This document shows, piece after piece, positions 15,239 through 21,933 of a stretch of DNA of 64,000 nucleotides (the first letter of the stretch is position 1; each line of letters begins with the position of its first letter). The notes beneath the pieces are model-generated. The model ran no database searches, was not told the DNA's origin, and saw only the letters and a list, made by a program, of their open reading frames with translations. Source of the stretch: Escherichia phage radambza; the sequence record MN850639.1; one strand, written 5' to 3'. A program made the translations under genes and the position numbers.

Positions 15239-15973
15239 TTATTTCTGTAATGCGCTCTTCATTTCTGGTGTTGCAATAGTGTCAATTACACCAGTTTTAC
15301 AGGCATCATCAAACCAGTCTGGTAAGATACCTGCTAAGAACCCATTGATATTCGTTTTAAGGTACTCTGCAATAAGGGCAGCTTCTTCTTCAATCATCTG
15401 CACAACTTCATCTGCATAAGCTGTAATCTTTGAGATACCTTCATTAATCTTACTAACAGCTTGGTTAGCTAAATCAGAAATAGTATCAAGACCTTTGTCA
15501 ATAGCGTCTTGTAAATCACTTAATACATCATTAACACCGTCTAGTGCACTGTTAATCGTATCAATAGCTTTTTGACCATACTCTGTAGCAACACCCATAA
15601 TACCACTAAATGGTGTACAGCCAACTTGTTCACCTGCTGCACTCATAACATTAGAATAACCTTTTGCTACCTGCATACGTGATGAAAACTCATCAATGGA
15701 CTTTTGACCGTAATCTGTCAGTGTTTTGGTGGTTGATGTAGTGCTTGTTAGACTCGTGGTAAAGCTGTTAAGCAGAACTGTTGTAAGTCCAGCAGCAACA
15801 AGCTTATCCTTTACTGTAGGGTCTGATACAGAGCTAATAGAGCTTACAAGTGATGTAGAGGCAGCTACGGTTCCACCGAGAACTGCTGCACCAGTAATAA
15901 GGGGGTTAGAAAACCCTTTACCAGTTTTTAAGAGATTAAAAATCTCCTTACCTTGTTCTGTCATCTCTTTCAT
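15239..15973 (-). CDS. hypothetical protein embedded in tRNA cluster
   Basis: ORF-track GTG start at 16036 overlaps tRNA-Phe; trimmed to ATG at 15971-15973 (MKEMTEQGKEIF...), about 244 aa. Confidence 0.5.
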   Translation of the reverse strand: MKEMTEQGKEIFNLLKTGKGFSNPLITGAAVLGGTVAASTSLVSSISSVSDPTVKDKLVAAGLTTVLLNSFTTSLTSTTSTTKTLTDYGQKSIDEFSSRMQVAKGYSNVMSAAGEQVGCTPFSGIMGVATEYGQKAIDTINSALDGVNDVLSDLQDAIDKGLDTISDLANQAVSKINEGISKITAYADEVVQMIEEEAALIAEYLKTNINGFLAGILPDWFDDACKTGVIDTIATPEMKSALQK

Positions 15974-15989
15974 TAAGCACCTTTGAAAT

Positions 15990-16066
15990 TGGTAGTCCAG
16001 TGGGATTTGAACCCTCTTCTCATGTTTTTCAGACACGCGCTTTAACCATATAAGCTACTTGGACTA
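15990..16066 (-). tRNA. tRNA-Phe (anticodon GAA)
   Basis: Acceptor TAGTCCA/TGGACTA, anticodon stem CGTGT/ACATG loop ctGAAaa, T-loop TTCAAAT; 3' end register ambiguous by one nt. Confidence 0.6.
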
Positions 16067-16424: not shown

Positions 16425-16982
16425 TTACTTTCTCAGTGGATGAATAAAGAATGCCAACATAACTCTTTCCCTTGAGAATGCTCTTTCTTCTGGGACAACA
16501 CTTTTTAGTTTCCATCCAATATAAATTCTCCAGTAAAATTGTTTACCAAAGATTTTAATTGATGGGATAAAAGCGAATAATCCCCAAGCATTCCTGTTCC
16601 ACATTAGGAGATAACCAGTCTGATTATCTTCAGGGTTAGAACTTACGTTGATATTACCTTTCCACTTAGTAACATCTTTTACATCTCTTCCTAACACATG
16701 GTAAGAGAAGTTATAAGCTTTGTTTCTCCAGAGCCATCCAACTCTTTGCATGTAGACACCTAGTTTACCAATCCATCTAATATTAGCCCATCTTTTAACG
16801 TGACCTTCATCACCATCAATTGGGTTGTCATATGTCTCCATCCATCTGAATCCGAAAGGTAAGTGTCCTTTCTTCTCACTGTAGAATGGAACTACAAAAG
16901 GTGCTAAGATAACTGCTAAGATTGCTGCAAATGGCTCTAACAAAGCTAAGAAAATCCATGAAGCATACTTTAAGTATCTCAT
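16425..16982 (-). CDS. membrane protein (N-terminal transmembrane segment, Trp-rich), function unknown
   Basis: 185 aa, ATG start; hydrophobic N-terminus IFLALLEPFAAILAVILAPFVVPF; embedded between tRNA genes. Confidence 0.55.
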   Translation of the reverse strand: MRYLKYASWIFLALLEPFAAILAVILAPFVVPFYSEKKGHLPFGFRWMETYDNPIDGDEGHVKRWANIRWIGKLGVYMQRVGWLWRNKAYNFSYHVLGRDVKDVTKWKGNINVSSNPEDNQTGYLLMWNRNAWGLFAFIPSIKIFGKQFYWRIYIGWKLKSVVPEERAFSRERVMLAFFIHPLRK

Positions 16983-18016: not shown

Positions 18017-18099
18017 TGGCATGGGACGGAGGAGTTGAACCCCTTTGAAACGGTTTTGGAGGCCGTTGCTCATGCCTTAGAGTCTTAACATCGTCCCAT
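18017..18099 (-). tRNA. tRNA-Trp-like (anticodon CCA) with enlarged D region
   Basis: Perfect acceptor ATGGGAC/GTCCCAT with encoded CCA, T-loop TTCAACT, anticodon loop ctCCAaa; 26 nt between acceptor and anticodon stem instead of about 19. Confidence 0.45.
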
Positions 18100-18242
18100 A
18101 CTATAATTCGAAGCTTACCGTATTATCTCAACACTGTAAAGCCCCTTCTCAGATTATTTACATGTTCTGGAAAACATGAGATACAGACCACCTCCTTACA
18201 CGGAGACCCGATAAGGTCGTCTAAGCAATCTGCTAACTAAAT

Positions 18243-18324
18243 TGGTCGAGGCGGCAGGACTCGAACCCGCATACTCCACTTACTCGGTTAACGGCGGTTT
18301 AGAAGACCGCTGAGATACGCCCCG
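18243..18324 (-). tRNA. tRNA-like element, atypical (anticodon-like loop TCT; no recognisable D arm; 23-nt variable region)
   Basis: Acceptor CGGGGCG/CGCCTCG, T-arm GCGGG/TTCGAGT/CCTGC, encoded CCA, perfect stem GCGGT/ACCGC with loop ctTCTaa, but only 7 nt between acceptor and that stem. Confidence 0.35.
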
Positions 18325-18572
18325 TAATTATCTTTAAAGACTCTCTTAGAAAGCCCTTAAAGATGCCCACTTTATTAATCATACCGTGGGCGAGTACGCC
18401 AAATTCTTTGATGAGGGATTGGAAGACCTCACTGGTGTTTAGCCTATCAAGCTACTGCCAGAAAAACATTGTCGTTTGCATTTATTTTAAATTTGCAAAA
18501 TAGACGCTACGCAACGAAAACTAAGGTTACTATAAAGTAGTCACATCTCAATGTCAACAACTTTATTGAAAG

Positions 18573-18647
18573 TGGTTGTAGGTGAGGGTATCGAACCCTC
18601 TTCTAACGGTTATCAGCCGTTTGCATTACCATTTATGCTAACCCACA
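18573..18647 (-). tRNA. tRNA-Ile (anticodon GAT)
   Basis: Perfect anticodon stem AACGG/CCGTT loop ctGATaa, T-arm GAGGG/TTCGATA/CCCTC, encoded CCA. Confidence 0.7.
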
Positions 18648-18649
18648 AT

Positions 18650-18726
18650 TGGAGGTTCAGGTGGGAATTGAACCCACATTCATAGGGCTTATGAAACCCT
18701 TGCATTACCTTATCTGCGACTGAACC
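18650..18726 (-). tRNA. tRNA-Met (anticodon CAT)
   Basis: Perfect acceptor GGTTCAG/CTGAACC, anticodon stem AGGGT/GCCCT (three G-C pairs) loop ttCATaa, T-arm GTGGG/TTCAATT/CCCAC, encoded CCA. Confidence 0.65.
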
Positions 18727-18730
18727 ATAT

Positions 18731-18806
18731 TGGTAGAAGTGGAGGGATTCGAACCCATCGCCTGTCAGATTAAAAGTCTGCCGCATCACCATTCTGCTAC
18801 ACTTCC
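18731..18806 (-). tRNA. tRNA-Lys (anticodon TTT)
   Basis: Acceptor GGAAGTG/CACTTCT, anticodon loop ctTTTaa, encoded CCA; paralog of 17498-17573. Confidence 0.6.
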
Positions 18807-18810
18807 ATTA

Positions 18811-18954
18811 AATTATCTTTGTAGATAAGCTACCCAGACTTGCTTAAGGTCTGTAGCGATGTGCCTTTTTGGGTTTAAATCTAGAATTTACCCTTTCACC
18901 CTTTGTGGTCGCATACTCACAGGTAAGCTTAATAACTTATCTACAAAGATAATT
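18811..18954. repeat. perfect 19-bp inverted repeat pair (18811-18829 and 18936-18954) flanking a 106-bp spacer
   Basis: AATTATCTTTGTAGATAAG and its exact reverse complement CTTATCTACAAAGATAATT; internal hairpin CAGAC-ttgcttaag-GTCTG. Confidence 0.6.
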
Positions 18955-19005
18955 ACCAGACCGTTGTTTATCATCTTAAGTGCTACCATTACACCAACTC
19001 GACAT

Positions 19006-19031
19006 CTGCCGAGTGAAGGAATCGAACCTTC
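19006..19031 (-). pseudogene. tRNA 3'-half-like fragment (T-arm plus acceptor 3' strand, no 5' partner)
   Basis: Perfect T-arm GAAGG/TTCGATT/CCTTC but no complementary acceptor 5' strand or anticodon arm within 100 nt. Confidence 0.3.
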
Positions 19032-19234
19032 GCCTTTTCTTTACCGAGAAATAGATTGTTTAAGTTTTGCTGTAAACGGTCTTCTGTAAATTTGTTGAGC
19101 CAGACCAAGTTTTAGATTTTCAAAATTAAATTGGCTTGAAATTTCATACGTTCTTGCTGTATTTGGTCTTCTGCTCCTTTAAAGAATACTCGTAAGAACT
19201 CTTTAAGGGAGGGGCTAAATAGCCCTCTCAAAAT

Positions 19235-19314: not shown

Positions 19315-19743
19315 TCATGTACCATTTCTTAGATACTTCTTCCTACGTCTTTCTGGACTATAGTTTCTTCTACTCTCAGCATTCTTAGCCAGCCTACACT
19401 CATCGCATCTACAGCCTTTAAAATAGCTATACGCAGTTCCGTGTTTAATTGTTTTATGTTTTCTTTCACTTATCTGTGCTGGTCTTGCTGCTTTCATGTT
19501 ACATTTAAGATGACTATAAGAAATATTATCTAGTGAAAAGAAAAGCTCTTTTGCATTCTCACTATGTCTCCACGGAATCTTATGCTCGATAGAGAAATCA
19601 TCCCTAGTCATTTCTTTTCCGCACTGAAAACATCTATTTTGATTTGTCTTACATATAAAATCGAATAGCAAATCTTTTACTAGTCTGTTTTGTGCAGTTC
19701 CCAAACTCATACCAAGTTGTGATTTGTATACTTCATCTCTCAT
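19315..19743 (-). CDS. HNH homing endonuclease
   Basis: CFQCGKEMTRDDFSIEHKIPWRHSEN...SHLKCN HNH motif; ORF-track start at 19836 overlaps tRNA-Tyr, trimmed to ATG at 19741-19743. Confidence 0.75.
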   Translation of the reverse strand: MRDEVYKSQLGMSLGTAQNRLVKDLLFDFICKTNQNRCFQCGKEMTRDDFSIEHKIPWRHSENAKELFFSLDNISYSHLKCNMKAARPAQISERKHKTIKHGTAYSYFKGCRCDECRLAKNAESRRNYSPERRRKKYLRNGT

Positions 19744-19765
19744 AACTAAGTATCTCGCTAAGTGT

Positions 19766-19853
19766 TGGTGTGCCGTGTAGGAGTCGAACCTACCGAGTCT
19801 CAATGACAAGGGATTTACAGTCCCCACCGCTACCATCTACGGGATAACGACAC
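19766..19853 (-). tRNA. tRNA-Tyr (anticodon GTA), type II
   Basis: Acceptor GTGTCGT/ACGGCAC, anticodon stem GGGGA/TCCCT loop ctGTAaa, long variable arm, T-arm GTAGG/TTCGACT/CCTAC, encoded CCA. Confidence 0.7.
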
Positions 19854-20517: not shown

Positions 20518-21933
20518 TTACCAGATGTAACGGTCAATCATTACTGCTTTGAGCATTACGCTGATTGGGTCAAACTTCTCACCACCAAGCAGAGCTTTTA
20601 AAGTTGCTGGAGAGAAACCAGATACCATTGCTACACCGTTATCCTTAACAGACACTTCGCAAGTACCATTACGGTTTGCTAAGTACCAGAATACCAGTTG
20701 AGGCATTTCGTACCCAGCTTTTTTGTACTTACTCTGAATTGCTTCAAAGTTTGTACGACCGTTAGCTCCATCAACCTGATTGAACTCCATATCGGAGAAG
20801 ATGATAAGCTTACTTGGCATGTCTTTCTGAGTCAAGTTGTTTCTCTTACCTACCTCAAGAATGCGGTCAAAAGCTGCTTGTAAGTTAGTTGAGCCATATT
20901 CAACATGTCGCATCACCTGACGATGACGGTTTCGTAAATCACCACTCAGTTCGATGAAGTGAGGGTTTGTTGAATAAACCATTAACTCATCCTTGAAGCA
21001 ACCTGTATTGCGTTCTGCTACATACAAGGCAAGTGATACACCAATATCAAGGGCAGTGATTGAACCAAGATTCACCCAAGACATTGAGCTTGAAACATCA
21101 GTCATACACAGGATGTTTTCACCTTCTGCCATCCAGTTTGGTAGTGCTTTCCACTGCTCATTAGCAACATCTGCATTACCATACTTGATAGATTTAATCA
21201 CATCGTATGGGTAAACAGCACCAGCATTAATCTTAGCCTCACCTTTTGAGAGGGACTCGATGTAAGCTTTGTAACGCTCTCCATCTTTACGGTTAAACAG
21301 TTTTTGGTAACGTGCAGCAGCAAGTGAAGGAATCTTACTGTAGTCAATCTTACCAAACTCATTAGCAGAGATTTTTTGCTCAACTGTATCAGATAGTGCA
21401 GACAACAGTGTGCGGTACTCTTTCTCACTCAAGTTGGCAAACTTGCAGAAACGTTTTACAAACTGCTTATGACGTGGTTTGACTCGTGGTAACCACTTAG
21501 CCGCCAAGCCTGCTGTTGCAGGGTCTAGTAATGCTGCTTCTAAATGTTTGAAGGCATCTGTCTCGAAACGAGTACCTACAAAGATTTTGAAGTCATCAAA
21601 ACGACCAAGCTCTGCAATCTTATCCATAATGCGAAGAACCTGTGTAGGTTCTAAAACTTTATCTTCAATTGCTTGAAGTAAAACAGTTCGGAAAGCTTTA
21701 CGCTCACCCATACCTTCTCGTACATCTCGCATATGCAGTAAAATACGAACTGCAACATCAACATCCTCACGCAAAGCTTTGTAGAACAGGTCTGGTAAGA
21801 TTACTACATTGCTACGGCTCGAACCAGCAGCTTTGTAAAAGTCTACAAGAGCAGACATTGATGAAGTATGGTTTACAGCACCATTTTCAGTTCGACCTGC
21901 ATGAAGGTGCGCATGTTTAAATAATTCGCTCAT
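20518..21933 (-). CDS. von Willebrand factor A (vWA) domain protein with N-terminal helical domain
   Basis: 471 aa; MIDAS-like ILCMTDVSSSM at about residue 280 and later IIFSDMEF; N-terminal roughly 270 aa of unknown fold. Confidence 0.6.
   Translation of the reverse strand: MSELFKHAHLHAGRTENGAVNHTSSMSALVDFYKAAGSSRSNVVILPDLFYKALREDVDVAVRILLHMRDVREGMGERKAFRTVLLQAIEDKVLEPTQVLRIMDKIAELGRFDDFKIFVGTRFETDAFKHLEAALLDPATAGLAAKWLPRVKPRHKQFVKRFCKFANLSEKEYRTLLSALSDTVEQKISANEFGKIDYSKIPSLAAARYQKLFNRKDGERYKAYIESLSKGEAKINAGAVYPYDVIKSIKYGNADVANEQWKALPNWMAEGENILCMTDVSSSMSWVNLGSITALDIGVSLALYVAERNTGCFKDELMVYSTNPHFIELSGDLRNRHRQVMRHVEYGSTNLQAAFDRILEVGKRNNLTQKDMPSKLIIFSDMEFNQVDGANGRTNFEAIQSKYKKAGYEMPQLVFWYLANRNGTCEVSVKDNGVAMVSGFSPATLKALLGGEKFDPISVMLKAVMIDRYIW

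What the first reader, a model, noticed from the sequence alone, without database searches (positions are those of the whole stretch)
18017..19031. tRNA-like elements with canonical acceptor and T arms but aberrant cores
Three elements in the tRNA cluster have good acceptor stems, T arms and (for two) encoded CCA, yet do not fold as standard cloverleaves: 18017-18099 (anticodon loop CCA, about 7 extra nt in the D region), 18243-18324 (perfect stem-loop with TCT, essentially no D arm, 23-nt variable region), and 19006-19031 (T arm and acceptor 3' strand only). They could be divergent functional tRNAs, decaying tRNA genes, or tRNA mimics.
Basis: seen in the sequence. Interest (0 to 1): 0.5.

Follow-up and report, generated by a model that had tools for sequence, protein, structure and literature searches.

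The report
Rewired phage tRNAs plus Y RNA
In the tRNA gene cluster of a Felix O1-like phage, two "broken-looking" elements are conserved arginine and tryptophan tRNAs with a rewired core, and the third is a circularly permuted tRNA mimic (a Y RNA-like RNA) lying near a previously unrecognised Ro60-like gene. None of the three is a decaying gene.

Summary
The window is a Felixounavirus, with its tRNA cluster on the minus strand. All three elements exist at the stated coordinates, and ARAGORN calls none of them.

**E2 (18324..18243)** belongs to a widespread phage family in which the D arm is replaced. A 3-bp helix forms between the usual D-stem 5' strand and a segment after the anticodon arm.
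- Across 29 distinct sequences, 99% of cells are paired and 15 of 20 pairs show compensatory changes.
- 59 distinct scaffold members carry only arginine anticodons (UCU 49, CCU 6, ACG 4).
- In Felixounavirus, E2 is allelic with a canonical tRNA-Arg(UCU).

**E1 (18099..18017)** is an Ounavirinae-specific tRNA-Trp(CCA)-like molecule with 8 extra nucleotides before the D stem. It is also supported by covariation. Arg and Trp are exactly the two amino acids missing from the 24 canonical tRNAs.

**E3** is not a fragment. Its complementary 5' acceptor strand and a D arm follow immediately, giving the T arm, acceptor hairpin, D arm order of YrlA-type Y RNAs. The acceptor pairs covary across genera.

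A gene 1.4 kb upstream on the same strand (Pfam DUF2828 plus DUF7788) folds like Ro60. The same gene-RNA pairing recurs in an unrelated 143-kb phage.

Aminoacylation and expression are inferred, not shown.

The parts
18243..18324 (-). E2: non-canonical tRNA-Arg(UCU). Layout: acceptor 18324-18318 / 18253-18247; U8 A9 U10; D-like helix CUC 18314-18312 with GAG 18285-18283; anticodon stem-loop 18310-18294 (anticodon UCU 18303-18301); linker CGUUAACC; UAAGUGGAGUAU (GG-A, candidate G18 G19 A20); T arm 18270-18254; A73; CCA 18245-18243.
   Evidence: Sequence and fold. Rfam tRNA 31.7 bits with the D arm deleted. Family covariation. Family covariance model 103.5 bits. Only Arg anticodons in the scaffold. 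Allelic with canonical tRNA-Arg(UCU).
18017..18099 (-). E1: non-canonical tRNA-Trp(CCA)-like. Layout: acceptor 8 bp 18099-18092 / 18028-18021 (or 7 bp plus an A.C pair); invariant linker AUGUUAAGA 18091-18083; D-like stem CUC 18082-18080 / GAG 18071-18069 with loop UAAGGCAU; anticodon stem 18067-18063 / 18053-18049; 9-nt loop CCUCCAAAA (anticodon CCA 18059-18057; the 31:39 position is always a mismatch); 4-bp T stem; G73; CCA 18019-18017.
   Evidence: Fold. Restricted to Ounavirinae and never annotated. Variants. Covariation (98.6% of cells paired, 8 pairs with double changes, none in slid controls).
18953..19089 (-). E3 module: circularly permuted tRNA-like domain (YrlA-like). Layout: closing bulged helix UUAC-AGA-AGACCGU (19089-19076) / ACGGUCU-G-GUAA (18964-18953); V hairpin; T arm 19031-19015; acceptor hairpin ACUCGGC-AGAU-GUCGAGU 19014-18997; UG; D arm 18994-18980.
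   Evidence: Sequence. Fold. Cross-genus comparison. RNAalifold consensus with double changes in acceptor pairs. Same order as YrlA: PMC4201824 and bioRxiv 10.1101/312249.
20518..21933 (-). Ro60-like protein gene (471 aa; Pfam DUF2828 + DUF7788). It lies on the same strand, about 1.4 kb 5' of E3 and directly 5' of the tRNA cluster. It is the proposed protein partner of the E3 RNA.
   Evidence: Pfam. AlphaFold2 model with pLDDT 88 and pTM 0.88. Foldseek top 12 PDB matches are all Ro60/TROVE proteins, E 2e-8 to 2e-6, full length. Same gene followed by two YrlA-like modules in an unrelated phage (L333).
19098..19175 (-). Second copy of the bulged-helix motif (AGC-AGA-AGACCAA / UUGGUCU-G-GCU) closing a plain hairpin. 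It may be a second, YrlB-like Y RNA module.
   Evidence: RNAalifold consensus, pairs 67-73/130-136. Sequence. Conserved but without covariation.

Best explanation
The window is a Felix O1-like phage (Felixounavirus).

E2 and E1
- They are best read as working elongator tRNAs with non-standard cores. E2 would decode AGA/AGG as arginine and E1 would decode UGG as tryptophan.
- In E2 the D arm is replaced. The normal 5' part (acceptor, U8, A9, D-stem 5' strand, A14) runs straight into the anticodon arm.
- The D-stem partner (GAG) and a GG-A loop (UAANUGGAG) come after the anticodon arm.
- The result is a three-way junction in which a 3-bp helix stacks on the anticodon stem and the GG-A segment can reach the T loop and ArgRS.
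- E1 keeps a small D arm but carries 8 invariant extra nucleotides before it. It has an 8/4 acceptor/T arrangement and an anticodon loop closed by a conserved mismatch.

E3
- It is a circularly permuted tRNA mimic of the YrlA (Y RNA) type.
- It is probably the RNA partner of the phage's own Ro60-like protein, encoded 1.4 kb upstream.
- Its 7-bp acceptor hairpin makes it a likely RNase P substrate.

Shown versus inferred
- Shown: the structures, their conservation and covariation, anticodon restriction, allelism, gene context, and the Ro60-like predicted fold.
- Inferred: transcription, processing, aminoacylation, ribosomal use, Ro60 binding, and why a rewired core is advantageous. Evasion of host enzymes that target canonical tRNAs is the favoured guess.
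For: Identity of the window: Felixounavirus, 306 phage records at 80-99% identity.

E2
- 262 phage records hold E2-like sequence. They include FelixO1, Asteriusvirus, Sugarlandvirus/Demerecviridae, Justusliebigvirus, Vequintavirinae, Kolesnikvirus and Vibrio phages, usually inside tRNA clusters.
- In 29 distinct sequences, 99.1% of cells are paired and 15 of 20 pairs have double changes. The covariation score is 0.759 against 0.188 in shuffles (0/500) and at most 0.14 in slid controls. The linker helix pair is U-A 26, G-C 2, A-U 1.
- The family model gives members 96-106 bits (window E2 103.5), two divergent relatives about 55 bits, and ordinary tRNAs 34 bits or less.
- Anticodon-agnostic scaffold scans give 59 distinct structurally filtered sequences. 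Their anticodons are UCU 49, CCU 6 and ACG 4, all arginine. The discriminator is a purine in 54 of 59.
- Bacterial Arg identity is A20, C35, U/G36 and A/G73 (PMC9976931).
- In 19 Felixounavirus loci the slot holds either E2 (9) or a canonical tRNA-Arg(UCU) (10), with identical flanks.
- Canonical Arg(UCU) almost never co-occurs with E2.
- AGA makes up 34.6% of Arg codons in the window's long ORFs.

E1
- It is present in 235 Ounavirinae records.
- The anticodon stem changes compensatorily: AACGG/CCGTT, GTAAG/CTTAC, GTAGG/CCTAC. The D-like stem changes CTC/GAG, CAC/GTG, ACA/TGT. The T stem changes G-C to U-A.
- 98.6% of cells are paired and 8 pairs have double changes.
- E1 has CCA, G73 and A1-U72, which the review names for Trp identity; it also has G5-C68, listed there as a minor element for B. 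subtilis.
- The 24 canonical tRNAs cover 18 amino acids and lack only Arg and Trp.

E3
- The acceptor hairpin takes three forms: ACTCGGC/GTCGAGT, ACACGTT/GGCGTGT, and ACCCTTC-G-CCA-AACA-GAAGGGT. The last has an encoded discriminator and CCA.
- The order V, T, acceptor hairpin, D, closed by a kinked helix, matches YrlA.
- The adjacent ORF has a Ro60-like fold.
- An unrelated 143-kb phage has the same gene followed by two T/acceptor-hairpin/D modules and then a tRNA cluster.
Against: - There are no expression, end-mapping or charging data for any element, and I could not retrieve published tRNA-seq of related REP phages.
- Single-sequence folding energies of E1, E2 and E3 are no better than shuffles (z = -1.4, 0.0 and -0.2).
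- The E2 linker helix has only one covarying pair, with few independent events.
- No solved or modelled 3D structure shows that the scaffold reaches an L shape.
- E1 covariation rests on about 4 lineages. Some Felixounavirus variants carry uncompensated changes: G.A in the anticodon stem and U.U in the T stem. The Pectobacterium-phage version needs a bulge in the acceptor stem.
- E3 lacks the GNCGAAN0-1G motif proposed for Ro60 binding, and the closest candidate is not conserved.
- No Rfam family, Y RNA included, scored on E3.
- Ro60 similarity of the ORF is at fold level only: TM 0.5-0.65 and 12-16% identity, with sequence and profile searches not significant.
Confidence: 0.65

Rival explanations
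1. The elements are decaying tRNA genes (pseudogenes) left over in a recombining, homing-endonuclease-ridden tRNA cluster.
For: - ARAGORN misses all three and Rfam scores are low.
- The cluster holds HNH endonuclease genes.
- A few Felixounavirus E1 variants carry uncompensated mismatches.
- One MAG copy of the E2 scaffold (L084) has a destroyed T arm.
Against: - Compensatory double changes keep every stem paired across genera and across unrelated phage families.
- Loops and linkers are invariant while stems vary, which is the signature of purifying selection on a structure.
- E2 homologues occur in at least 8 phage lineages.
- Anticodons are restricted to Arg.
Confidence: 0.04
2. E1 and E2 are tRNA-shaped decoys or regulators that are not used on the ribosome. 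Examples would be sponges for host anticodon nucleases or other tRNA-targeting defence enzymes, or binding sites for a phage protein.
For: - Host defences that cleave tRNAs, and phage tRNAs that counter them, are documented (PMC10264068 listed; PMC12916289).
- The cores are abnormal enough that EF-Tu and ribosome compatibility is unproven.
- E1 and E2 share a GUUAA motif next to the D-like helix, which could be a protein site.
- They sit beside a genuine mimic, E3.
Against: - A decoy need not keep an encoded or addable CCA, a purine discriminator and the GG-A element.
- Nor need it switch only among Arg anticodons from two different codon boxes, UCU/CCU and ACG.
- E2 occupies the slot of a canonical tRNA-Arg(UCU) and is mutually exclusive with it, in an AGA-rich genome.
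- E1 and E2 fill exactly the two amino-acid gaps of the cluster.
Confidence: 0.2
3. E2 is charged with serine through its long 'variable' region, as in type II tRNAs and the D-armless mitochondrial tRNA-Ser(UCU). It would then recode AGA.
For: - There are 23 nt between the anticodon and T stems.
- Metazoan mitochondrial tRNA-Ser for AGY/AGN lacks the D arm and can carry UCU (PMC7609411; PMC4013460 listed).
Against: - Part of the region pairs with the 5' linker rather than forming a long extra arm.
- Other family members have linkers of only 3-5 nt.
- Members with anticodon ACG (CGN codons) make sense only if the shared identity is arginine.
- The purine discriminator and GG-A fit ArgRS.
Confidence: 0.03
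4. E3 is only the junction of two truncated tandem tRNA copies. Alternatively it is merely an RNase P/RNase Z processing signal that punctuates the long cluster transcript, with no trans-acting role.
For: - The authors of the YrlA survey warn that tRNA dimers mimic the T-then-D order.
- E3 lies in a tRNA cluster.
- A 7-bp acceptor hairpin is a good RNase P determinant.
Against: - The two acceptor strands pair with each other and covary as a pair in three versions.
- A conserved kinked helix closes the domain.
- The module is 97-99% conserved within the genus.
- A Ro60-fold gene lies 1.4 kb upstream on the same strand.
- An unrelated phage repeats the gene-plus-module arrangement twice over.
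Confidence: 0.1
5. E3 is the tRNA-like domain of a split (two-piece) tmRNA system whose message part is the tag-encoding RNA at 18527..18330.
For: - Permuted tmRNA genes have the same order: 3' half first, then 5' half.
- The Michonne version encodes the discriminator and CCA.
- A tmRNA-like tag frame, ANDNVFLAVA, lies about 500 nt downstream.
Against: - Three canonical tRNAs (Lys, Met, Ile) and a promoter separate the two.
- E3 has no G3.U70.
- The tag RNA occurs in hundreds of phages and phage-plasmids that lack E3.
- E3 is explained by the Ro60-like neighbour.
Confidence: 0.05

Closest known systems
Canonical bacterial and phage tRNA-Arg(UCU) (Rfam RF00005 cloverleaf)
   Same: - 7-bp acceptor, 5-bp T arm with a UUCGA loop, and 5-bp anticodon stem.
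- The anticodon loop CUUCUAA is identical to that of the canonical allele in sister phages.
- Purine discriminator and CCA.
- Same genomic slot.
   Different: - There is no D arm.
- The D-stem 3' strand and the GG-A loop are relocated to the 3' side of the anticodon arm, so the fold is a three-way rather than a four-way junction.
- ARAGORN does not call it.
Metazoan mitochondrial D-armless tRNA-Ser(GCU/UCU)
   Same: - An elongator tRNA without a D arm.
- It can carry anticodon UCU.
- It shows that translation can use such molecules (PMC7609411).
   Different: - It is organellar, shortened, degenerate in sequence, and specific for serine with adapted factors.
- E2 is longer than a normal tRNA, highly conserved, keeps a canonical T arm, and points to arginine.
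- E2 would have to work with unmodified bacterial EF-Tu and ribosomes.
tRNA-Sec and allo-tRNAs (8/5, 8/4 or 9/3 acceptor/T arrangements)
   Same: - E1 can be read as 8-bp acceptor plus 4-bp T stem, supported by a G-C to U-A double change.
- Its best Rfam match is tRNA-Sec.
   Different: - E1 has no long variable arm and no 6-bp D stem.
- It has a Trp anticodon and Trp identity elements.
- It has an extra 8-nt linker seen in none of those classes.
- The score is far below threshold (23 bits against 47).
YrlA-type bacterial Y RNAs with Ro60/Rsr
   Same: - The same order: stem, V, T arm, acceptor-like hairpin, D arm, stem.
- The 'anticodon' stem is kinked.
- It is encoded within 4 kb and on the same strand as a Ro60-fold protein.
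- The acceptor hairpin is 7 bp, as in M. smegmatis YrlA, which is cut by RNase P and receives CCA.
   Different: - There is no conserved GNCGAAN0-1G motif and no Rfam hit.
- The protein is a divergent family filed in Pfam as DUF2828/DUF7788, not TROVE.
- The RNA sits inside a phage tRNA cluster.
- There are longer linkers between the closing helix and the tRNA-like core.
Two-piece (permuted) tmRNA
   Same: - Permuted order of the tRNA-like halves.
- The Michonne version encodes the discriminator and CCA.
- The neighbouring tag RNA resembles the tmRNA message domain.
   Different: - E3 has a true D stem, no G3.U70, and no tag directly attached.
- Rfam tmRNA models score below threshold.
- ARAGORN finds no tmRNA.

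Membership tests
Canonical tRNA (RF00005 / ARAGORN cloverleaf) | Four-arm cloverleaf with a D arm between positions 10 and 25 | tested here: not met
   - E2: the Infernal alignment deletes the D arm, leaving 4 nt in place of 15.
- E1: a 3-bp D-like stem, but with 8 extra nt before it.
- E3: permuted order.
- ARAGORN calls none of the three.
Canonical tRNA (RF00005 / ARAGORN cloverleaf) | Score at or above Rfam's gathering threshold (29 bits) | tested here: inconclusive
   E2 scores 31.7 bits, just above the threshold. E1 and E3 fall below it: the best for E1 is tRNA-Sec at 23 bits, and E3 gives only an 11-bit partial match.
Canonical tRNA (RF00005 / ARAGORN cloverleaf) | Acceptor stem, T arm with a T-loop consensus, 7-nt anticodon loop with U33 and purine 37, and an NCCA end | tested here: met
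   - E2 has all of these features.
- E1 has all of them if the conserved C.A or C.C at 31:39 is counted as closing a 7-nt loop CUCCAAA. Otherwise its loop is 9 nt.
- E3 has no anticodon loop.
Canonical tRNA (function) | Aminoacylation and use in translation | not testable with these tools
   Only indirect evidence is available: identity elements, anticodon restriction, allelism with a canonical tRNA, and codon demand.
D-arm-rearranged phage tRNA-Arg scaffold (family defined here, model R1) | GUAUCNC linker, anticodon arm, GN'GUAANUGGA, T arm, with N pairing with N' | tested here: met
   The window's E2 scores 103.5 bits against R1, while ordinary tRNAs score 34 bits or less. E2 was one of the 29 sequences used to build the model.
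D-arm-rearranged phage tRNA-Arg scaffold (family defined here, model R1) | An arginine anticodon | tested here: met
   The window's E2 has UCU. Across the family the counts are UCU 49, CCU 6 and ACG 4 of 59 distinct sequences.
Mitochondrial D-armless tRNA-Ser | Organellar origin, serine identity, shortened body | tested here: not met
   E2 is phage-encoded, 82 nt long, and has Arg-type features. The resemblance is only in lacking a D arm.
tRNA-Sec / allo-tRNA | Long variable arm and Sec/Ser-type features, with a score above 47 bits | tested here: not met
   E1 has a 5-nt variable loop and scores 23 bits. Only the 8/4 arrangement is shared.
YrlA-type Y RNA | A tRNA-like domain in the order T arm, closed acceptor-like stem-loop, D arm, enclosed by a stem formed by the flanks | tested here: met
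   The RNAalifold consensus, with double changes in the acceptor hairpin, shows this order. The comparison is with PMC4201824 and bioRxiv 10.1101/312249.
YrlA-type Y RNA | Encoded near (within 4 kb) and on the same strand as a Ro60 orthologue | tested here: met
   ORF 20518..21933 on the minus strand lies 1.4 kb 5' of E3. The top 12 PDB fold matches of its AlphaFold2 model are all Ro60/TROVE proteins. The caveat is that the similarity is at fold level only.
YrlA-type Y RNA | A GNCGAAN0-1G motif near the 5' end (the proposed Ro60 contact) | tested here: not met
   The only match, GGCGAAG, lies at the T-stem junction. It becomes GGAGAAG or GAGAGAAG in relatives. A different conserved bulged helix carrying GGUCUGG is present twice.
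YrlA-type Y RNA | Binding to Ro60, and modification by TruB and DusA | not testable with these tools
   This needs immunoprecipitation and modification mapping.
tmRNA (for the neighbouring tag RNA and for E3 as a possible tRNA-like domain) | A tRNA-like domain with G3.U70, chargeable with Ala, joined to a tag reading frame, and detected by ARAGORN or Rfam | tested here: not met
   - A tag frame and a helix-5-like hairpin are present.
- No tRNA-like domain is joined to them.
- E3 has no G3.U70.
- Rfam scores of 17 and 31.7 bits are below the threshold of 47.
- ARAGORN is negative.

The most novel reading that the evidence does not exclude
Phages of enterobacteria, vibrios and many uncultured hosts encode a natural class of arginine tRNAs whose D domain is topologically rewired. 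These tRNAs are nevertheless charged by the host ArgRS and used by ordinary bacterial ribosomes. This would be the first non-organellar elongator tRNAs that break the cloverleaf.

The same Felix O1-type cluster packs further tRNA-shaped devices:
- a rewired tRNA-Trp;
- a Ro60-like protein with its Y RNA;
- a stand-alone tmRNA-like tag RNA.

Together these suggest a coordinated phage toolkit. It would keep translation running, and handle damaged RNA, while host defences attack canonical tRNAs.
Probability: 0.45. Interest if true: 0.9.

Novelty: new variant of a known kind. Interest (0 to 1): 0.8.

Why it matters
[quoted passage not shown] A conserved, widespread phage tRNA-Arg scaffold with a relocated D domain would be a natural counter-example working with bacterial ArgRS, EF-Tu and ribosomes.
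- That makes it a ready test case for how much of the tRNA core translation really needs. It is also a possible orthogonal scaffold for genetic-code engineering.
- Gene finders miss or mislabel these genes, for example as 'tRNA-OTHER' or as nothing at all. As a result, phage tRNA repertoires, including those of therapeutic Felix O1-like phages, are undercounted.
- If the altered core protects against tRNA-directed host immunity, it extends the known anticodon-loop escape strategy to the tRNA body.
- Recognising DUF2828/DUF7788 proteins as Ro60-like, with adjacent YrlA-like RNAs, would place Ro-Y RNA particles in several thousand further phage sequences.

Tried and rejected
**Standard detection**
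- ARAGORN on the window found no call for E1, E2 or E3 and no tmRNA.
- Rfam was run at gathering and at E-value thresholds. Only E2 passes, marginally, and nothing matches a Y RNA, GOLLD or ROOL.

**Single-sequence folding**
- The energies do not distinguish E1, E2 or E3 from shuffles, so I relied on comparative evidence instead.

**Alternative readings of E2**
- I first modelled a 3-bp stem inside the E2 'variable' region (YCG/UGG, the RNAfold minimum-energy structure). I dropped it in favour of the CNC/GN'G helix, because only that helix covaries.
- I considered E2 as the tRNA-like domain for the upstream tag RNA. I rejected this because canonical tRNA-Arg alleles sit in the same place, and because E2 occurs in phages without the tag RNA.
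- E2 has no match in 5,426 complete E. coli genomes, so it is not host-derived.

**Alternative readings of E3**
- I considered E3 as the acceptor piece of a two-piece tmRNA, and rejected it as described under the rivals.
- The Ro60-binding motif GNCGAA is not conserved.
- Sequence and profile searches of the DUF2828 protein against the PDB were not significant. Only the fold comparison gave Ro60.

**Wider searches**
- A pattern search for E1-like scaffolds outside Ounavirinae returned only chance matches.
- Literature searches for D-armless or non-canonical phage tRNAs, phage tmRNA-like RNAs and DUF2828 found nothing relevant.
- The Nyerges et al. paper on REP phages was not held, and the YrlA supplementary alignments were not available.
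Full report
**What the window is.** A 1.7-kb query around the finding matches 306 phage records at 80-99% identity, nearly all Felix O1-like myoviruses (Felixounavirus, Ounavirinae) of Escherichia, Salmonella, Shigella and Citrobacter. The tRNA cluster lies on the minus strand, from 20352 down to 15065. ARAGORN tRNAs there for 18 amino acids, and the only two amino acids without a tRNA are Arg and Trp.

**Checking the observation.**
- E1 (18099..18017) has a perfect acceptor stem, G73, an encoded CCA, a T loop UUCAACU and a loop containing CCA. It also has 8-9 extra nucleotides after the acceptor stem.
- E2 (18324..18243) has acceptor CGGGGCG/CGCCUCG, A73, CCA, a perfect anticodon stem with loop CUUCUAA, a normal T arm, only UAUCUCA where the D arm should be, and 23 nt between the anticodon and T stems. 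The Infernal alignment to the tRNA model simply deletes the D arm.
- E3 (19031..19006) is a T arm plus a 3' acceptor strand.
- None of the three is called by ARAGORN. E1 reaches only 23 bits against tRNA-Sec (E 0.12), and E3 gives only an 11-bit T-arm match.

**E2 is allelic with a canonical tRNA-Arg(UCU).** Phages Andreotti and SLAM_phiST56 annotate a normal 77-nt tRNA-Arg(UCU) at exactly this position. Alignment shows identical flanks but an unrelated tRNA body. Among 19 Felixounavirus loci, 10 carry a canonical Arg(UCU) (two subtypes) and 9 carry E2, including the window. The two E2 variants differ by a compensatory G-C to U-A change in the anticodon stem.

**E2 belongs to a large family.**
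- BLAST finds E2-like sequences in 262 phage records. These include FelixO1 itself, the jumbo Asteriusvirus group (PBECO4), Sugarland-like Demerecviridae, Klebsiella and Proteus 145-kb phages, phi92-like and rV5-like phages, an Erwinia Kolesnikvirus and a Vibrio phage.
- The element is usually inside tRNA clusters. It is either unannotated or labelled 'tRNA-OTHER'.
- Pattern scans of IMG/VR added dozens of environmental contigs.
- In 29 distinct sequences the acceptor, anticodon and T stems differ freely but stay paired. 99.1% of cells are paired and 15 of 20 pairs have changes on both sides. The covariation score is 0.759 against 0.188 in shuffles (0/500) and at most 0.14 when partners are slid.
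- The loops and linkers are nearly invariant.
- The middle base of the 5' linker (UAUC[U]CA) covaries with a base after the anticodon arm (CG[A]GUAA): U-A 26, G-C 2, A-U 1, and A-U again in a Vibrio phage left out of that alignment.
- This defines a 3-bp helix that encloses the anticodon arm. The 5' third of E2 (acceptor, U8, A9, positions 10-13, A14) therefore has canonical spacing. The partner of the D-stem strand and a GG-containing loop (UAANUGGAG) lie on the other side of the anticodon arm.

**The scaffold is specific for arginine.**
- A covariance model of the family scores members at 96-106 bits (window E2 103.5). Two divergent relatives score about 55 bits, and ordinary tRNAs score 34 bits or less.
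- One of the 55-bit relatives has anticodon ACG.
- Anticodon-agnostic scaffold patterns were pooled and filtered for acceptor, anticodon-stem and T-arm pairing. This gave 59 distinct sequences with anticodons UCU 49, CCU 6 and ACG 4.
- All three anticodons are arginine, drawn from two different codon boxes.
- The discriminator is a purine in 54 of 59, and CCA is encoded in 39 of 59.
- Bacterial arginine identity is A20, C35, U/G36 and A/G73 (PMC9976931). That the GG-A in UAANUGGA supplies G18, G19 and A20 is my inference.
- Canonical Arg(ACG/UCG/CCG) genes often accompany the element. A canonical Arg(UCU) accompanies it only once, or when the element itself is CCU.
- AGA makes up 34.6% of Arg codons (13.8 per 1000) in the window's long ORFs.
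- E2 has no match in 5,426 complete E. coli genomes.

**E1.** E1 occurs in 235 records, all Ounavirinae (Felixounavirus, Mooglevirus, Suspvirus and Pectobacterium phages). It is never annotated as a tRNA, and a pattern scan found nothing comparable elsewhere.
- Across genera the anticodon stem is fully re-written but stays paired: AACGG/CCGUU, GUAAG/CUUAC, GUAGG/CCUAC.
- The D-like stem changes CUC/GAG to CAC/GUG to ACA/UGU.
- One T-stem pair changes G-C to U-A, which favours an 8-bp acceptor plus 4-bp T stem.
- The linker GAUGUUAAGA is invariant.
- 98.6% of cells are paired and 8 pairs have double changes, with none in slid controls.
- The loop reads C-[Y U C C A A M]-M, with a C.A or C.C mismatch always at the closing position.
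- E1 has the CCA anticodon, G73 and A1-U72 (G1.U72 or G1-C72 in variants), which the review names for Trp identity. It also has G5-C68, listed there as a minor element for B. subtilis.
- The evidence is thinner than for E2. It rests on about four lineages, a few variants carry uncompensated mismatches, and the Pectobacterium version has a bulge in the acceptor stem.

**E3.** I compared the Asp-to-Lys spacer in the window with Sf17, Sf15, Michonne and EcSzw-2.
- The T arm and D arm are invariant, while the hairpin between them takes three fully compensated forms: ACUCGGC-AGAU-GUCGAGU, ACACGUU-AC-GGCGUGU, and ACCCUUC-G-CCA-AACA-GAAGGGU. The last encodes a discriminator and CCA.
- RNAalifold on seven sequences places a V hairpin, the T arm, the acceptor hairpin and the D arm inside a closing helix with an internal loop: UUAC-AGA-AGACCGU / ACGGUCU-G-GUAA.
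- This is the architecture of YrlA-type bacterial Y RNAs, described by their discoverers as circularly permuted tRNAs with a closed acceptor stem and a kinked 'anticodon' stem. The M. smegmatis YrlA, which also has a 7-bp stem, is cut by RNase P and receives CCA (PMC4201824; bioRxiv 10.1101/312249).
- The proposed Ro60 contact motif GNCGAAN0-1G is not conserved in E3, and no Rfam family matches.

**A Ro60-like neighbour.** YrlA genes lie within 4 kb of a Ro60 gene on the same strand, so I scanned the window's large ORFs.
- The gene immediately 5' of the cluster (20518..21933, minus strand, 471 aa) matches only Pfam DUF2828 and DUF7788.
- Sequence and profile searches of the PDB are not significant, although the top profile hits are 'TROVE domain-containing protein'.
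- An AlphaFold2 model built from 26 homologues is confident (pLDDT 88, pTM 0.88).
- Its 12 best PDB matches are all Ro60/TROVE proteins from Xenopus, human, Deinococcus and a Thermus phage. They align over the full length with E 2e-8 to 2e-6 and TM 0.5-0.65. Only isolated vWA domains follow.
- In an unrelated 143-kb phage contig, a 51%-identical homologue is followed by a gene-free stretch. That stretch holds two further T-arm / 7-bp acceptor-hairpin / UA / D-arm modules that ARAGORN does not call, and then a 13-tRNA cluster.
- A second distant homologue, from a Vibrio jumbo phage, showed no such module within 5 kb.
- I therefore read E3 as the Y RNA of a phage Ro60-like particle. Binding itself is inferred.

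**How it most likely works.**
- E1 and E2 would be transcribed with the cluster. A weak promoter-like site also lies just 5' of E1.
- They would then be matured by RNase P and 3' trimming, charged by the host TrpRS and ArgRS, and used to complete the phage's own set of tRNAs for all 20 amino acids. E2 would meet a heavy AGA demand.
- Why the core is rewired is open. The favoured idea is escape from host enzymes that recognise the canonical D arm or elbow, extending the known escape of phage tRNAs by anticodon-loop changes. A shared GUUAA motif in E1 and E2 could instead be a site for a phage factor.
- The main rival is that these RNAs are decoys rather than adaptors. That reading is hard to square with the Arg-only anticodon switching, the allelism and the identity elements.

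**Limits.** There are no expression or charging data and no 3D model. Covariation counts are not independent-event counts. The first retrieval pattern fixed the UCU loop, although the later ones did not. The literature check covers only open-access papers and bioRxiv.

**Also in the finding's span.** Between tRNA-Ile and E2 lies a strongly structured RNA (z = -4.5).
- It has a near-consensus promoter and a tmRNA-style tag frame without a start codon (ANDNVFLAVA, followed by two stop codons inside a hairpin loop).
- It is conserved in hundreds of unrelated phages, prophages and SSU5-like phage-plasmids, and is unannotated.
- It is reported under 'noticed in passing'.

Noticed in passing
window 18330-18557, minus strand (promoter 18557..18529; tag frame 18479..18450; stops 18449..18444): A stand-alone tmRNA-like 'tag RNA'.
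- It has a promoter TTGACA-17-TATAGT (11 of 12 matches) and a 5' GUUUUCGUU that resembles the tmRNA GGAUUCGAC.
- The frame GCA AAC GAC ... encodes ANDNVFLAVA, followed by UGA UAG in the loop of a helix-5-like hairpin. There is no in-frame start codon.
- The folding z-score is -4.5. Rfam tmRNA models score below threshold and ARAGORN is negative.
- The same element, with 12 tag variants of the form AN[DE]xx[FYV]L[AM][VA]A, occurs in Ackermannviridae, about 47-kb siphoviruses, N4-like phages, 691 of 5,426 E. coli genomes and 754 SSU5-like phage-plasmids, always unannotated.
- No joined tRNA-like domain is found in Felixounavirus. Some other phages have tRNA-like pieces downstream.
- I found no literature on it.
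   Followed up: partly
window 20518-21933, minus strand: A 471-aa protein matching Pfam DUF2828 + DUF7788 has a predicted Ro60 (TROVE + vWA) fold. At least 2,838 homologues were found at E <= 1e-5, the listed ones largely from phage or phage-sized contigs, including jumbo Vibrio phages. A few are named 'RNA-binding protein'. The family does not seem to be recognised as Ro60-like in Pfam.
   Followed up: yes
L333:6730-6800 and L333:7042-7095 (143-kb phage contig, Logan SRR10097265): Two further permuted tRNA-like modules lie directly after a DUF2828/Ro60-like gene and before a tRNA cluster. Each has a T arm, a 7-bp acceptor hairpin, UA and a D arm. ARAGORN calls neither.
   Followed up: partly
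window 19098-19175, minus strand: A duplicate of the bulged-helix motif that closes E3 (AGC-AGA-AGACCAA / UUGGUCU-G-GCU). Here it encloses only a hairpin, and it may be a second, YrlB-like Y RNA. The repeated GGUCUGG resembles the GGUCCGA contacted by Ro60 in vertebrate Y RNAs, but it lies on the opposite strand of the helix.
   Followed up: partly
window 18811-18954, minus strand: A 19-bp stem (AAUUAUCUUUGUAGAUAAG / CUUAUCUACAAAGAUAAUU) encloses a domain of about 105 nt. The stem covaries between Felixounavirus and Mooglevirus. Within the domain, the hairpin CAGAC-CUUAAGCAA-GUCUG (18853..18835) keeps its loop while its stem covaries, even in Pectobacterium phages. The function is unknown.
   Followed up: partly
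window 18100-18242, minus strand: The conserved spacer between E2 and E1 holds a perfect Shine-Dalgarno sequence (UAAGGAGGU, 18198..18190). It is followed by a 7-codon ORF, AUG UUU UCC AGA ACA UGU AAA UAA (18177..18154), which overlaps a 6-bp hairpin and contains an AGA codon. A promoter-like site, TTGAGA-17-AATTAT (18131..18103), ends 4 nt before E1.
   Followed up: no
E1 18091-18083 and E2 18292-18286, minus strand: E1 (GAUGUUAAGA-CUC) and E2 (CGUUAAYC-GAG) both carry an invariant GUUAA two nucleotides before one strand of their D-like helix. Other subfamilies of the Arg scaffold use shorter linkers without it, such as UGAAA, AGCC and UCA.
   Followed up: partly
L081:13347-13429 and L065:2688-2766: These are divergent subfamilies of the rewired Arg scaffold. 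One has anticodon ACG with a 3-nt linker. The other has UCU with a different 5' linker (UAUGCCG). They show that the design extends beyond the E2 subfamily.
   Followed up: partly
L025:113-197 (Klebsiella phage Roth39); L073:475-546 (phage St11Ph5); L068:788-869 (Pectobacterium phage Arno162): Three other odd tRNA-like genes turned up in related loci.
- Roth39 has a second, unrelated 'tRNA-OTHER'.
- St11Ph5 has a 'tRNA-Ala(CGC)' that scores only as tRNA-Sec (30 bits), lying about 100 nt upstream of its tag RNA.
- Arno162 has an 82-nt tRNA-Ala with an expanded variable region, in the slot that holds E3 in Felixounavirus.
   Followed up: no
window 15239-16036, 16425-16982, 19315-19836, minus strand: ORFs of 265, 185 and 173 aa interrupt the tRNA cluster. 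The last corresponds to genes annotated as HNH homing endonuclease in relatives. In the window the 185-aa ORF occupies the place where sister phages have tRNA-Arg(ACG). Endonuclease traffic may explain the cassette-like exchange of tRNA alleles.
   Followed up: no
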